Source of the DNA: Eledone cirrhosa
Taxonomy: Eukaryota
Length of the DNA: 64,000 nucleotides
Assembly: GCA_964016885.1 (NCBI GenBank)
Contig: CAXHJY010001324.1
Location: forward strand, 5,347-69,346
Reading direction: 5' to 3'
Position 1 is the stretch's first letter, and each line of letters starts with the position of its first letter. Below, piece after piece: positions 11,586-61,089 of this stretch. Below the pieces are notes generated by a model. It saw only the letters and a program-made list of their open reading frames with translations. It was not told the DNA's origin and did not search any database. The position numbers and the translations under genes were made by a program.

Positions 11586-11733
11586 ACACACGTCTGTGTG
11601 TATATGTATGTAGGTATATATATATATATGTATATGTATGTATATATATATATATGTATGTATGTATATATATATGTATGTATGTATATATATATATATA
11701 TATATATGTAATAAACAACATAAGGCAATTATT

Positions 11734-11789
11734 CCATTTACCAGTGGTTTCTTAAAAGCAAAAAATTTTGCTTTCAATTCTCAGAATGA
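11734..11789 (-). ncRNA. Hammerhead ribozyme copy with core mutation (CUGAGAA)
   Basis: Inverted copy of 11802-11857 with a G8-to-A change in the core, so predicted impaired. Confidence 0.6.
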
Positions 11790-11801
11790 AAAAAATCCTG
11801 G

Positions 11802-11857
11802 TCATTCTGAGGATTGAAAGCAAAATCTTTTGCTTTTAAGAAACCACTGGTAAATGG
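11802..11857 (+). ncRNA. Type I hammerhead ribozyme motif
   Basis: TCATT-CTGAGGA-TTGAAAGCAAAA/tc/TTTTGCTTTTAA-GAAA-CCA c TGG-TA-AATGG. All three stems are present; GUA site at 11850-11852. Confidence 0.85.
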
Positions 11858-11974
11858 AATAATTGCCTTATGTTGTTTATTAGATAACTATTAAGCTCTG
11901 TTACCTACATAGAGCACTCTTTTTTCCTGGACTTTTCCGACGGAATTACTTCATTTATATATACATATATATAT

Positions 11975-12152
11975 AATTGTTTCTACTTTAGGCACAAGGC
12001 CAGCAATTATCCAGTGCATTACTGGTACTTTATTTTATCGACCCCGTAAGGATGAAAGGCAAAGTCAACCTCGGCGGGATTTGAACTCAGATCGTAAAGG
12101 GACGTAACTATGCTGGAAAGCATGGCGTCCGACCCTCTACCGATACTGCCAA
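11975..12152 (-). mobile_element. SINE family A, young copy
   Basis: Reverse complement of 36626-36813 (A box TGGCAGTATCGG, B box GAGTTCAAATCC). Confidence 0.9.
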
Positions 12153-12220
12153 GAGAGAGAGACGTACGCACACATAATATACATACATATATATATATAT
12201 ATATATATATATATATATAT

Positions 12221-12873
12221 ATTTCTTTAAGTCGTTTGGAAGCCTCGACAATGCAAATGGGTAAATCTCCGGGTAACAAGATACGGTGGTGGAGAGAGAG
12301 AGAGATGTAAGTGGGTGAACGTTGATATGCGTGGCGTGTATAAGACGTGTAGAGGAATGAAGGATAAAAATAACAACACGAGAGAGAGTTACCTTGGGAG
12401 AGATTTAATTGTCCCTATATATTTCGGATTCACATCCATCAACTGGGTTTTTTTTCCGGGGTGGGGGAAAGGTTATCTGTCAGAAAGGTGCGAAACGCGT
12501 CCTCCGCTTTTCAAAACAACGAACAGCGGAGGACGCGTTTCGCACCTTTCCGACAGACAACTTTTCCCCCACCCCGGAAAAAAACCCCAGTTGATGGATG
12601 TGAATCCGAAATATATAGGGACAATTAAATCTCTCCCAAGGTAACTCTCTCTCGTGTTGTTATTTTTATTTTTATCCTTTATGCTCTATCCTTCATTCCT
12701 CTACACGTCTTATACACGCCAAGCATCTCAACGTACACCCACTTACATCTCTCTCTCCACCACCGGATCTTGTTACCCGGAGATTTACCCATTTGCATTG
12801 TCGAGGCTTCCAAACGACTTAAAGAAATTTACCTTATCATTCCACAATGCTTCAAGCAAACTTCAATACTCTC
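12221..12873. mobile_element. Large palindromic element (about 290-bp arms) in (TA)n, Penelope pLTR-like
   Basis: Arms 12221-12507/12526-12828, right tail to 12873, (TA)n on both sides. Contains a hammerhead-like variant CCC-CAGTTGA-T-GGAT/gtga/ATCC-GAAA-TATATA-GGG (12585-12620) and a GAAACGCGTC half-motif. Confidence 0.75.
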
Positions 12874-13203
12874 ATATATATATATATATATATATATATA
12901 TATATATATATATATATATGAGAGAGAGAGAGAGAGAGGCGTACTCACACATAATATATATATATATATATAAATATATTTCGTTTCTGAATTTGTTTAG
13001 CAAGATTCTTTATCTGAAATCGTGTGTTGAAACCGATATTGTTATACTTTGGGAGGGTCATGTTGCCAATAAGAAACACACGCACCAGTTGCTTTCACTT
13101 CAATTTATTATATATTTATAAATTTACAAATTTACAAATCTACAAACTTATAAATTTCTGGTTGGTTGGTTGGTTCCACAACCAGATAGTTGTTTATATA
13201 TAT

Positions 13204-57424: not shown

Positions 57425-57460
57425 TCTTTACGTTTCGCACACTAGTCCTTTATCAGAAGA
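57425..57460 (-). ncRNA. Degenerate minimal hammerhead motif
   Basis: TCTT-CTGATAA-a-GGAC/tagt/GTGC-GAAACGTA-AAGA. G8-to-A change and one stem II mismatch. Confidence 0.5.
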
Positions 57461-59669
57461 TAGAATTAGAAATAAAAGATGAAATAGAAGAGGAAGGAAC
57501 GGGGAATAAAAAATGCTTTTAAAGAAAAGATACGGGTGTATTCAGTCAGACAATTTGGTGATATATATATGTATATATATATATATATATATATATATAT
57601 GTGTGTGTATGTGATGTAGTTTCTCCAACCCCGAAAAAATAATCTAAGTTGAGTTCAGCATTTATTTTATGGAATAGAATAAGGACAACGAATCCAAGGG
57701 AGAGATATATTTGGTATATTCTATATAATCCATGGTAGTGAGTGGCGGCTTGCTATGATTTACAACTCTCAACAAGCTCCAAAACAGGAAAATTATTTCT
57801 TAAACGTTAAATGAAGAAGCGAAGATATTCTTTGACTGGGGGGGAGATAAATGGCAGTTGCACAGCTTCATTGCAAGATAAAAGAATTGGATAATCTTAG
57901 AAATGCAAATGTGTATTTCAGGGGTTGTAAAAGGTGTCAACAGCACACTAGTTATAGGCAAAAATAATGAAGCAGCAATAACAAGATGATGAATAATAAC
58001 TATTGGTAGTAGTTGTTGTTGTACAGAATGAAAACGGAGAAGATGAAGAAAAAGATTGAAAAGAACGATGATGATGATGATGTTGACCAAAGAAGGAAAC
58101 AAAGAAGGAAAAATGAGGATTGACGAAAGAAGAAGAAAGACGAGGGAAATGGTATTAAATGAAACACATACAGTGATAACAGCACTCGTAAGATACAGAA
58201 ATGGCCTTCGTTCCAGTGTATGGCAAAAGTAAAGAGAAATAAACAAACGATAGAGCGTAATTAACATAAATCTTACAGCTAGCTTTGAAGTAGATAAATG
58301 TAGACAGAGAACATCGATATATATATAGTATAAGTGATCCGGCAAAAAATAGAGTTGGTTATTATAATAATAATAATAATATATTTGTGATATCCTTCAC
58401 AATAACGTGTGAGATATCCAGGAAAAAATAAAAGGAGGAAAGGAATGACAGAACGAGAAATGAGGTATCCTTGAAGTAAATGAATTCCGTGGAATCGGAT
58501 TTGGTGTGCACCATCCTGAAAATTAAATAGTGCCGTTAAGATCAAATATTAACAAGGAAAAATCGCTTTCTTTGCAATCCCATTATTGATAGAAACAAGC
58601 AAGCGAAGATAGTGTTAAAAGGGCTTAAAATTTGGTCAAGCTAAAACTTCAGATATATTTTTGTGTGTATGTACACACGTACACCTATATATACACACAC
58701 ACCACACTCCACACACACACACACACACACACACACCGCACACCACACACCACACACCACACACACACTCTCTCTCTCTCTCTCTCTCTCTCTCTCTTTC
58801 TCTCTGTGTATGGTTTATAACGAGCGTGATATGATTTACTTAGAAGTTGTTTGACGGAAGTCTTTTCTTCGTTACTACAGTGGATATAATAAAGATATTT
58901 ATTCAGTTTATCATCATCAAATCTGTAAACTACATCACAAAACTGTTAAGCTTTCATCATTTACTGCCAGCAATTCCGGCAAAGATTTCTATAACATTCT
59001 GCCTTCTCACATGCGAGCGTGAGAAACCTTGGGATTGTTGAAAGTTGTTAATGATGTTGAAAGGTGTTGTTTAGCTACAATCAGAGTTATGGTAAACAGC
59101 AGTCTAACCATGACTATACCATCTTATTTTCAGATACAGTATATCGAGAAATACACTTCTCAATCCACCATTTGTTATATATTTGTTTAAGAATGTAATA
59201 TGAAGGAGATGAGTAAGAGGCAGGGTCTTGGGGCTCTGGTGTTACATAAAGCACTTTGTTCCTCCATCGTAAGTGGCCTTTAAGCTCTCTGAAAAATTTA
59301 TTTCATAAAATCTTATATATTTATTAATTTATTTATCATGAAGTAATTAAAAAAAAAAATATCTCAAGCCTCAAATCTCATTAGTAAGACAGTTACCGAA
59401 ATCCATGTTTACTTGTATGTATATAATTATGCTGTTCTTACATTTACGATTGTTAATTTTGTAAAGTAAAAAATGACTCTTTAGGCAGAAAATGTACCCA
59501 ACCCCTGAATAGGAGAGACCTCACATAAACTACGGTGGTTATTCTCAGAATGTCCTATTCCCTTCTTCAGCCAACAAATTTCCACCATAATTAAACTGGG
59601 AATAAACAACTATTCCATGAAGGAATATTTAAAACTCATTTTCTTTATTAATTCCTACATTTAGTATGA

Positions 59670-60110
59670 ACCTTTAATTTCTTTCCGTTCAGACTTCAAA
59701 TCTTGTCGAGGTCATCTTTATCTTTCATCTTTCCGGGGTCGGTAAAATGAGGTACCAGTTAAGTACTGGGGTCGATATAATCAACATTAGCTTCCATTAA
59801 CGTAGTTGGTCTTGTGCCTAAATTAGAAATCATCCCAGAAGGCGGCGGATTGGTAGTGTCGTTAAAGCGTAGCAATATTTGCCCCTGCATTTTGCGTTCT
59901 GAGTTTGAATCACATCGAGGTTAGCTTTGCATTTCAACCTTATGTCGTCGATAAAATAAAGTACCAGTAATTCATTTGGGTGGATCGACTTAATCGACTT
60001 TTCCCTACCCTAAAATTGTTGGCATTGTGCCTAAATCAGAAAGCATTATTATTAGAATAGTGAGAGCGGTTGATTTGCAGAATCGTTAGAGATTCGGACT
60101 AAATATTCTT
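59670..60110 (+). mobile_element. Tandem SINE family A copies (two diverged copies plus a 5' fragment)
   Basis: Core at about 59720-59760 and about 59925-59968. Heads at 59840 and 60065. Confidence 0.75.
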
Positions 60111-60784
60111 TTTCGTCTTTGTCGTCTCTTCCTCCTCCTCCTTCGTCTTCTCTTCCTCCTCCTCCTTCGTTTTTGTCTCTTTCACCCTCTTCTTCTACTT
60201 TGTCTCTTTCACCTTCTTCTTCTACTTCTTTTTCTTTTTCTTCTTTCCTCTTTATCTATTCCACCTTCGTCGACTTCTTCTTCAATAGATTATCGATTAC
60301 CTCCCCTGGTTATTAGAACGGTTTCTAACTCCTTTGGTAACGCATTACAGATTCTTCAGACATAAAATTAAATTAAAAACGTGAAACATCAATGACGTCA
60401 TGAACAGTTTGTACTATTCTGATGGTGAAGTGGAGTATTCTGACCAAAACAGATTTAATTATTCTCACTGGTTGTATCGCACGAATGGTTTATCGATACA
60501 CACACGCAAACACACATCGTTGAACATTACTTTTCATATAATATTTACAGCATATATATGTAGAATGATGTTCTTTTGATACCGACACACTTCTTACGTA
60601 CGCAGATTTGTATGCATACATCCATCTACACACACACACACACCCATATATATATATGTAGGAGATGAGTTTTATTGAAGTACAATAAAACAATGCAGAT
60701 ATCGGATAAGAAGCACTCTACAGTTTGTAGGACTGGAGTATAAATAATATATAAGATCAAAAGATGGTTAAAAGAGTTCCATGT

Positions 60785-60858
60785 ATTTTATTATGCGTAT
60801 TTCAAAAACAAATATCATCATGCAATAACATAACATTTGCGTTTTCGTCAGATAAAAT
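60785..60858 (-). ncRNA. Type I hammerhead ribozyme motif
   Basis: ATTTTAT-CTGACGA-AAACGC..GTTTTT-GAAA-TACGCA-TA-ATAAAAT. Confidence 0.75.
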
Positions 60859-60967
60859 AGGGAGACATGATATGAAGGTTAAAACACACTTGTGAATAGT
60901 GCTTATATGTTGATTTAAAACTACACTATTCACAAGTTATGTTTTAACATTCATATCATGTCTCCCT

Positions 60968-61036
60968 ATTTTATCTGACGAAAACGCAATTGTTATTGCA
61001 TGATGATATTTGTTTTTGAAATGCGCATAATAAAAT
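60968..61036 (+). ncRNA. Type I hammerhead ribozyme motif
   Basis: ATTTTAT-CTGACGA-AAACGCAAT..ATTTGTTTTT-GAAA-TGCGCA-TA-ATAAAAT. 7-bp stem I and palindromic stem III. Confidence 0.82.
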
Positions 61037-61089
61037 ACATGGAACTCTTTTAACCATCTTTTGATCTTATATATTATATATATATATAT

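What the first reader, a model, noticed from the sequence alone, without database searches (positions are those of the whole stretch)
11710..61077. Recurrent architecture: outward-pointing inverted ribozyme pairs with one long and one truncated arm
Seen: at 11.7, 13.0, 17.6 and 60.8 kb (and partly at 12.2 and 40.7 kb) the left arm carries the hammerhead on the minus strand and the right arm carries it on the plus strand. Both 3' ends face the flanks, and usually only one arm keeps the full tail. Arms differ by a few substitutions and indels. Inference: insertion primes on both strands of the self-complementary (TA)n target, or switches template, producing inverted pLTRs as described for PLEs. 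Read-through transcription in either direction would meet a ribozyme, and would also form long dsRNA hairpins (candidate ADAR or siRNA substrates) that could sequester it.
Basis: partly seen in the sequence, partly recalled or inferred. Interest (0 to 1): 0.75.

Follow-up and report, generated by a model that had tools for sequence, protein, structure and literature searches.

The report
Back-to-back Penelope ends, one tailed
These back-to-back ribozyme repeats are the ends of a known kind of jumping gene (Penelope-like elements); in almost every pair exactly one arm carries an extra tail, which likely means that the two ends of a cut in TA-repeat DNA each start copying at a different fixed spot on the element's RNA.

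Summary
All six named loci are head-to-head inverted pseudo-LTRs of Penelope-like elements (three Hydra-like, one Neptune-like, two not placed) with hammerhead motifs, set in (TA)n. This layout, with a one-sided tail, is in print (PMC3846280, PMC8557442), and this scan has noted it on other DNA of this genome. What this check adds is numbers. The short arm is not randomly cut: it ends at a fixed family site. Of 229 same-family pairs, 188 have one tailed and one untailed arm, 3 break the rule, 38 are unclear. In random DNA, orientation is 66 outward to 17 inward; a SINE control gives 22 to 26. The untailed arm reaches further upstream in 55 of 107 clean junctions, which fold-back or template switching onto the first copy cannot produce. 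Best reading: both ends of the cut prime at two sites, likely on one RNA. Read-through RNA is predicted to bury the ribozyme; no fossil A-to-G excess. No long reads were available. Known kind, useful mechanistic constraint.

The parts
11705..11803 (-). Family F11.7 (Hydra-like) untailed arm; hammerhead 11784-11739 with G8>A
11802..11955 (+). F11.7 tailed arm; hammerhead 11807-11852; proximal end site 11891; 64-nt tail 11892-11955
12222..12516 (-). Family F12.2 untailed arm; hammerhead-like motif 12445-12416, core CAGUUGA
12506..12873 (+). F12.2 tailed arm; motif 12588-12617; tail of about 40 nt ending 12873
12979..13415 (-). Family F13.0 (Neptune-like) tailed arm; hammerhead 13243-13209; 57-nt tail 13035-12979
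13450..13829 (+). F13.0 untailed arm; hammerhead 13630-13664
17554..17724 (-). Family F17.6 (Hydra-like) untailed arm; hammerhead 17709-17599 with long helix II domain
17723..18478 (+). F17.6 tailed arm with about 480 nt more 3' UTR; hammerhead 18214-18324; 109-nt tail 18370-18478
40662..40779 (-). Family F40.7 tailed arm; only the 3' half of the hammerhead; tail of about 68 nt
40780..40849 (+). F40.7 untailed arm; hammerhead 40784-40822
60656..60901 (-). Family F60.8 (Hydra-like) tailed arm; hammerhead 60851-60792; tail of about 83 nt, 60738-60656
60905..61072 (+). F60.8 untailed arm, starting at the family's 5' hot spot; hammerhead 60975-61029
583..770 (.).
23162..23364 (.). Further pair (F23.1), arms start inside helix II; untailed left, tailed right
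49242..49438 (.). Further pair (F23.1); tailed left, untailed right
56246..56539 (.). Further pair (F56.2); untailed left, tailed right; no hammerhead within the arms

Best explanation
Each pair is the 3' end of an endonuclease-bearing Penelope-like element present twice, head to head, one arm ending at a fixed proximal site and the other at a fixed distal site 40-110 nt further on, and it likely forms when both ends of a cut in (TA)n DNA prime reverse transcription outward. Shown: identity of the elements, orientation, the two fixed ends, their near-strict pairing, a hairpin behind each end in four families. Inferred: the GIY-YIG domain cuts both strands of the TA repeat; a dimer holds one RNA at the two hairpins; one DNA end primes at the distal site (tailed arm), the other at the proximal site (untailed arm), helped by a few TA base pairs; both copies run toward the RNA 5' end, stop independently or at a shared hot spot that may be the RNA start, and are joined by end repair with short microhomology. 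The hammerheads are passengers of the pLTR and do not set any end.
For: Long copies link the arms to RT plus C-terminal GIY-YIG frames (weak Pfam RVT_1 and GIY-YIG hits for F13.0, below gathering score). Ends are bimodal in most hammerhead families. 188 of 191 cleanly classed pairs are proximal/distal, 17 families; 56 of 57 in 800 kb of random blocks; 168 of 171 without the tail-selected F11.7 loci. Orientation 66:17 within 6 kb and 48:3 within 100 nt, SINE control 22:26. Untailed arm reaches more than 10 nt further upstream in 55, tailed in 11, within 10 nt in 41 of 107. Arms share non-majority bases above random re-pairing in the variable families (H2 59 vs mean 15, max 29; F13.0 115 vs 35, max 65; F60.8 41 vs 16.5, max 33). 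Junction overlap of 2 nt or more in 50 of 74 vs 15.5% expected. A CUC...GAG bulged hairpin pattern follows the proximal site in 18 of 22 families vs mean 2.2, max 7 in shuffles and follows the distal site in 4 of 5 families where a tandem copy shows it. In vitro, a Poseidon element cuts and extends both strands and starts at two sites that bound the tail (PMC11167929, parts 1-2 of 4 read).
Against: One RNA is not shown: two RNAs on an asymmetric dimer give the same ends, and shared arm variants can come from gene conversion or one active source. Tailed arms run through the proximal site without piling up there, so one RNA needs strand displacement. About five joints between different families exist (C9 block, L022, L217, L009, L227), which need two RNAs or a later insertion. 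L136 is a direct tail/tail pair. In the two youngest families arms are no closer than other copies (F11.7 1.5 vs 1.7%, F17.6 1.8 vs 1.6%). The hairpin pattern was written after seeing the data, and its F13.0 hit is likely chance; F13.0 and F12.2 obey the rule without a clear hairpin. PMC11167929 reports no difference in start site between strands and no homology at the start site. Junction overlaps are alignment-based and probably inflated; 57 of 131 junctions (47 with extra bases, 10 with long overlap) were left out of that count.
Confidence: 0.6

Rival explanations
1. Both DNA ends prime, but on two separate RNA molecules; an asymmetric dimer makes one subunit use the distal site and the other the proximal site.
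For: Explains the same ends, needs no strand displacement, and allows the few joints between families (three proximal/distal, two proximal/proximal by eye) and the tail/tail pair L136.
Against: Arms come from the same subfamily far more than random re-pairing gives (H2 within 1.5% vs between 8.5%, 14 of 14). Mixed joints are about 5 against about 190 same-family pairs. Needs an extra assumption for the strict asymmetry.
Confidence: 0.25
2. One priming event, then fold-back or template switch onto the first cDNA, or self-priming on an antisense RNA as proposed in PMC3846280; the second arm is a copy of the first.
For: Many junctions are near-perfect palindromes with both arms starting within 10 nt (41 of 107); short overlaps at junctions; arms share variants.
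Against: A copied arm must lie wholly inside its template arm, so the tailed arm must reach furthest upstream. The untailed arm reaches further in 55 of 107, the tailed in 11, in some cases by kilobases with ORF (L133, L135). It also gives no reason for a fixed proximal end.
Confidence: 0.08
3. Assembly or library artefact (fold-back reads), or a general tendency of TA-rich DNA to make inverted duplications.
For: The window lies on an unplaced contig and also holds an inverted LINE pair. One tail/tail exception is a palindrome that runs into flanking DNA (C24 block). No long read spans the window's loci.
Against: Fixed family-specific asymmetric ends, arms 1-8% apart, no orientation bias for 174 SINE fragments, pairs on all large chromosomes. 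Short-read contigs of three runs of one sample hold head-to-head joints of family F60.8 at depth 5-40 (e.g. 60746 to 60905 in X1, X2, X3), and one raw read of another study holds one.
Confidence: 0.03
4. The pairs are selected as ribozyme terminators or dsRNA signals acting on read-through transcripts.
For: Each strand does carry one sense hammerhead; hairpins of -93 to -627 kcal/mol are predicted.
Against: Helix I probability 0.0 in 5 of 5 read-through folds; cores mutated or incomplete at three of six loci; many pairs (F23.1, F56.2) hold no full ribozyme; no host gene seen among the 30 frames of 130 aa or more (read by eye; short exons would be missed). The layout follows from insertion alone.
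Confidence: 0.04

Closest known systems
Inverted pLTR with one-sided tail of EN+ Penelope-like elements (PMC3846280, passages read; PMC8557442 Fig. 2 legend and passages)
   Same: [quoted passage not shown]
   Different: Tails here are 57-112 nt in 21 of 22 families (40 nt in F12.2) against 30-40 bp in print. The papers say 'optional' or 'often only at one end'; here it is counted at 188 of 191. The self-priming model in PMC3846280 does not fit the arm geometry here.
Poseidon_Ac in vitro (PMC11167929, parts 1-2 of 4 read)
   Same: Two RT start sites bounding the tail; both strands cut and extended; AT-rich target; hammerhead cleavage not needed (here 1 of 266 arm 5' ends lies within 2 nt of the cleavage site).
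   Different: That work did not test whether the two strands of one target use different sites; it reports start sites not homologous to the target, whereas most end sites here finish in TAT/ATA. Other clades.
Hydra clade (PMC8557442 section 11 read; supplement rows list Hydra-1_Obim with (TA)n preference)
   Same: RWK-like, DKT, CxCX5C linker, CxxC and CxH motifs, hammerhead, (TA)n insertion in F17.6, F60.8 and in part F11.7.
   Different: No tree was built and no sequence comparison with the published families was made.
Type I hammerheads of PLE pLTRs and animal retrozymes (PMC4209133 passages; bioRxiv 10.64898/2026.07.22.740005 passages)
   Same: Short palindromic helix III, extra base between positions 9 and 10.1 in F13.0 and F12.2, low monomer stability (helix I forms in 2 of 5 monomer folds).
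   Different: Inverted rather than tandem copies, so no dimeric ribozyme can form in cis; F12.2 has a family-wide CAGUUGA core; F17.6 has a helix II domain of about 92 nt.
LINE-1 twin priming (recalled, not read here)
   Same: Second cut strand primes on the element RNA and gives an inverted 5' piece with microhomology at the joint.
   Different: In L1 the two pieces do not overlap and the inner site is chance; here both arms cover the same pLTR and the inner site is fixed.

Membership tests
EN+ Penelope-like elements | Single ORF with RT and C-terminal GIY-YIG endonuclease upstream of the pLTR | tested here: met
   F17.6 (L127, L131, L132), F60.8 (L122, L139), F11.7 (L211, L213, L214), F13.0 (L133, L135, L136): RT DD motif and YxG[ST]T in order, frames broken in most copies. 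F12.2: endonuclease part only (L229). Pfam: weak hits for F13.0 only, 0 families for 6 of 9 proteins. F40.7: not tested.
EN+ Penelope-like elements | pLTR, partial tandems and inverted 5' copy | tested here: met
   Tail continues into the next ORF in L122, L127, L132, L134; inverted copies.
EN+ Penelope-like elements | Optional tail between two end sites | tested here: met
   Bimodal 3' ends; longer than the 30-40 bp in print.
EN+ Penelope-like elements | Hammerhead in the pLTR | tested here: met
   F12.2 core non-canonical. Rfam search showed no hammerhead family among the 150 of 247 matches listed.
EN+ Penelope-like elements | RT groups with PLE/telomerase RTs in a tree | not tested
Hydra clade | RWK, DKT, CxCX5C linker, CxxC and CxH, no CCHH, (TA)n target | tested here: met
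   All motifs in F17.6; RWI for RWK in F60.8; linker and endonuclease motifs only in F11.7. Absence of CCHH judged by eye.
Neptune clade | CX2-5CxxC linker before a C-terminal GIY-YIG with CCHH | tested here: inconclusive
   F13.0 has CX4CxxC, two Cys inside the GIY-YIG core and DKS; Nematis shares a linker and no tree was built.
Type I hammerhead ribozyme | Self-cleavage | not testable with these tools
   Only sequence and predicted folds.
Non-LTR retrozyme | Non-coding tandem monomers of a few hundred nt | tested here: not met
   Five of the six families link to coding PLEs; the window's copies are inverted pairs. Tandem-unit families exist elsewhere in the genome (H8).

The most novel reading that the evidence does not exclude
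A Penelope-like dimer binds one RNA at twin hairpins and uses both ends of a double-strand cut as primers at once, each at its own site, so the inverted pLTR with a one-sided tail is the normal product of a single insertion. This would be a retrotransposition route distinct from LINE-type first-strand/second-strand priming and would replace the antisense self-priming model.
Probability: 0.5. Interest if true: 0.7.

Novelty: new member of a known kind. Interest (0 to 1): 0.42.

Why it matters
How Penelope-like elements make their tandem and inverted ends is named as open in PMC8557442 and left open in PMC11167929. The near-strict one-tail rule and the arm geometry narrow the options to two models that an existing in vitro assay can tell apart with barcoded RNAs. 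The pairs are also abundant: 62 in 800 kb sampled (9 in 350 kb of large, 53 in 450 kb of small chromosomes), of the order of 100,000 genome-wide by rough extrapolation, so they may be a large source of hairpin RNA if transcribed. The layout itself is not new, and other windows of this scan have reached much the same reading.

Tried and rejected
Rfam: no hammerhead among the 150 of 247 listed matches, only hairpin look-alikes below threshold. Genome search with the 70-nt F40.7 arm found nothing, which shows nothing. No RNA holder listed, so expression, editing and small RNAs were not examined. Laying reads on 11250-13990 was swamped by other copies and no piece spanned a palindrome. PDB search with a Hydra-like frame: 0 matches; protein atlas did not answer. 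Cleavage-site truncation rejected: 1 of 266 arm 5' ends within 2 nt. Exact end-to-end twin priming (tailed arm stopping at the proximal site): about 6 of 133 tailed arms within 7 nt by eye, no pile-up. Fossil A>G editing: no excess; the one flagged locus (L053) is a misaligned junction. A family-free inverted-repeat survey was too noisy and its output was cut; replaced by the family-anchored count. Apparent tail/tail pairs in tandem-unit families H8 and H22 (6 pairs) were dropped: of 5 read by eye, 2 are proximal/distal at their outer ends and 3 unresolved. Target-site duplications cannot be read inside (TA)n. No complex fold was run: natural frames are incomplete. Literature: 8 searches showed no paper that counts tail pairing or proposes two-site priming of both ends; older subscription papers on Penelope are not in the library.
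Full report
1. Observation. The window is G000:C1351:5347-69346 in a 3.0-Gb animal assembly; its repeats look octopod to me (recalled, not tested). Self-comparison finds inverted pairs at all six named places. Arm alignments give 97-98% identity with a few indels. In each, the left arm reads on minus and the right on plus, both 3' ends meet (TA)n or a similar simple repeat, and exactly one arm continues into a unique tail: right at 11.7, 12.2, 17.6, left at 13.0, 40.7, 60.8. 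Four more pairs of the same build lie at 0.6, 23.1, 49.3 and 56.2 kb. A type I hammerhead descriptor finds 8 motifs in the window and 0, 0, 2 in three shuffles. Cores are canonical on both arms at 13.0, 17.6 and 60.8; 11.7 left has G8>A; 40.7 left lacks the first half; 12.2 has CAGUUGA on both arms, like 32 of 34 copies of its family.

2. What the elements are. Genome searches gave 838, 41, 1214, 93 and 1008 candidates for F11.7, F13.0, F17.6, F60.8 and F12.2, 40 scored and 30 loci kept each (lower bounds). Extending 40 loci linked the arms to RT plus C-terminal GIY-YIG frames. F17.6 carries RWK, DKT, the CxCX5C linker, CxxC and CxH; F60.8 the same with RWI; F11.7 the linker and endonuclease motifs. 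These are the marks given for the Hydra clade (PMC8557442 section 11), whose supplement lists an octopus member with (TA)n preference. F13.0 has a CX4CxxC linker and weak Pfam RVT_1 and GIY-YIG hits below the curated cut-offs, Neptune-like. F12.2 links to a GIY-YIG end with a 40-nt tail, clade not placed. F40.7 was not linked to a frame. No tree was built.

3. The two ends. In each family copies end at one of two sites, proximal (P) or distal (T). Tails are 57-112 nt in 21 of 22 reference families. In tandem copies the tail runs on into the next ORF. Over 1.64 Mb (190 targeted loci, sixteen random 50-kb blocks and the window), 235 same-family outward pairs were found. Six from tandem-unit families were dropped. 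Of the 229 left, 188 are P/T, 2 T/T, 1 P/P, 16 probable P/T with one end not at a simple repeat, 5 at a locus edge and 17 with a non-standard end. The 188 include 31 whose end was reassigned by a distance rule, 26 of them F23.1, where the reference copy diverges near P. Random blocks alone: 56 P/T, 1 T/T, 5 unclear. Without the tail-selected F11.7 loci: 168, 2, 1. The exceptions: L136, a direct T/T join to a near-full-length element; a C24 palindrome that runs into flanking DNA on both sides, likely a later duplication; L227, two copies 4.2 kb apart at 85% and 97% to the reference, likely separate insertions. Some pairs may be segmental duplicates. Of 74 unpaired arms in the random blocks several have micro-arms of 12-56 nt that follow the same rule by eye.

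4. Orientation. Same-family neighbours in random blocks: 66 outward, 17 inward, 19 tandem within 6 kb; 48, 3, 2 within 100 nt. The SINE control (174 fragments) gives 22 outward and 26 inward (Fisher p 1e-4).

5. Artefact check. An assembler cannot create family-specific asymmetric ends. Short-read contigs from three runs of one sample hold head-to-head joints of other F60.8 copies at depth 5-40, and one raw read from another study holds one. That sample may be the source of the assembly, and no long read was available, so the window's own loci are not confirmed by reads.

6. Mechanism. A fold-back or template switch onto the first copy, and the antisense self-priming proposed in PMC3846280 (passages), both require the copied arm to lie inside the template arm, so the tailed arm must reach furthest upstream. 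Among 107 clean junctions the untailed arm reaches more than 10 nt further in 55, the tailed in 11, and 41 are within 10 nt (63, 21, 47 on all 131). So the arms were primed separately. 5' ends cluster at family hot spots used by both arms (13 of 42, 10 of 60, 18 of 46, 35 of 80) and avoid the ribozyme cleavage site (1 of 266). Junction overlaps of 2 nt or more occur in 50 of 74 against 15.5% expected, with 57 junctions set aside and some inflation likely. Arms share non-majority bases above shuffled pairings in five of six variable families and tie the maximum in the sixth; the two youngest families give no signal. With the in vitro result that a Poseidon protein cuts and extends both strands and starts at two sites bounding the tail (PMC11167929), the best model is a dimer that primes both DNA ends, one at each site, most simply on one RNA (0.6). 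Two RNAs on an asymmetric dimer remain open (0.25): tailed arms pass the P site freely, and about five joints between different families were seen.

7. Transcript consequences. In a read-through RNA the antisense arm comes first. Predicted folds give helix I probability 0.0 in 5 of 5 palindromes; as monomers it forms in 2 of 5. So the ribozyme would be buried rather than met. Single-arm changes show 25 A>G and 23 T>C against 49 C>T and 37 G>A of 283: no retro-copied editing signal here, which does not test editing of RNA.

8. Known or new. The inverted 5' copy and the tail on one inverted pLTR are described (PMC3846280 passages; PMC8557442 passages and Fig. 2 legend), as are pLTR hammerheads (PMC4209133 passages). 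Eight searches showed no count of tail pairing and no two-site, two-end model, but older papers are outside the library and bioRxiv supplements were closed. The scan has 383 notes fitting these words in this genome, several with a similar reading; these are leads, not support. Verdict: new members of a known kind, with a quantified rule that makes an open question testable. Interest 0.42.

Noticed in passing
window 13980-17380 and 19698-21720: Three copies of one AP-type LINE family (95-98% alike). Two sit head to head around about 430 nt of (TATAGA)n with 5' ends about 30 nt apart in element coordinates; the left has an internal deletion. Only 2 fragments of this family were in 800 kb of random DNA. 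Local duplication or chance not resolved.
   Followed up: partly
window 12588-12617 and 12445-12416: Family-wide hammerhead core CAGUUGA instead of CUGANGA (32 of 34 copies) with helices I-III kept; activity unknown.
   Followed up: partly
window 18214-18324: Hammerhead with a helix II domain of about 92 nt, conserved in 33 copies.
   Followed up: partly
G000:C9 block 18108-18352; L022; L217; L009; L227: Direct 5'-to-5' joints between different PLE families, two of them Neptune-like to Hydra-like.
   Followed up: partly
L001-L030, after the F11.7 tail end: In 12 of 30 copies a (CA)n run lies between the tail end and (TA)n; source unknown.
   Followed up: no
L007, L025, L211-L216, L218: F11.7 has a second, 91%-like hammerhead about 1.3-1.7 kb upstream within its microsatellite-rich 3' region, which could allow a dimeric ribozyme in cis.
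   Followed up: no
G000:C4 block 13112-14478; C17 block 28123-29154; C14 block 41281-44101; C9 block 19545-20165: Non-coding tandem hammerhead units of about 520, 470 and 310 nt; the 520-nt family shows the same outward layout with one P and one T outer end.
   Followed up: partly
window 11316-11591, 32368-32741, 22428-22495, 61904-62001: Other short inverted repeats: SINE pieces at 11.3 and 32.4 kb, and two 34-49 nt palindromes around TA runs not assigned to a family.
   Followed up: no
   Followed up: no
window 61554: A single hammerhead-bearing copy of another family without a partner arm found.
   Followed up: no
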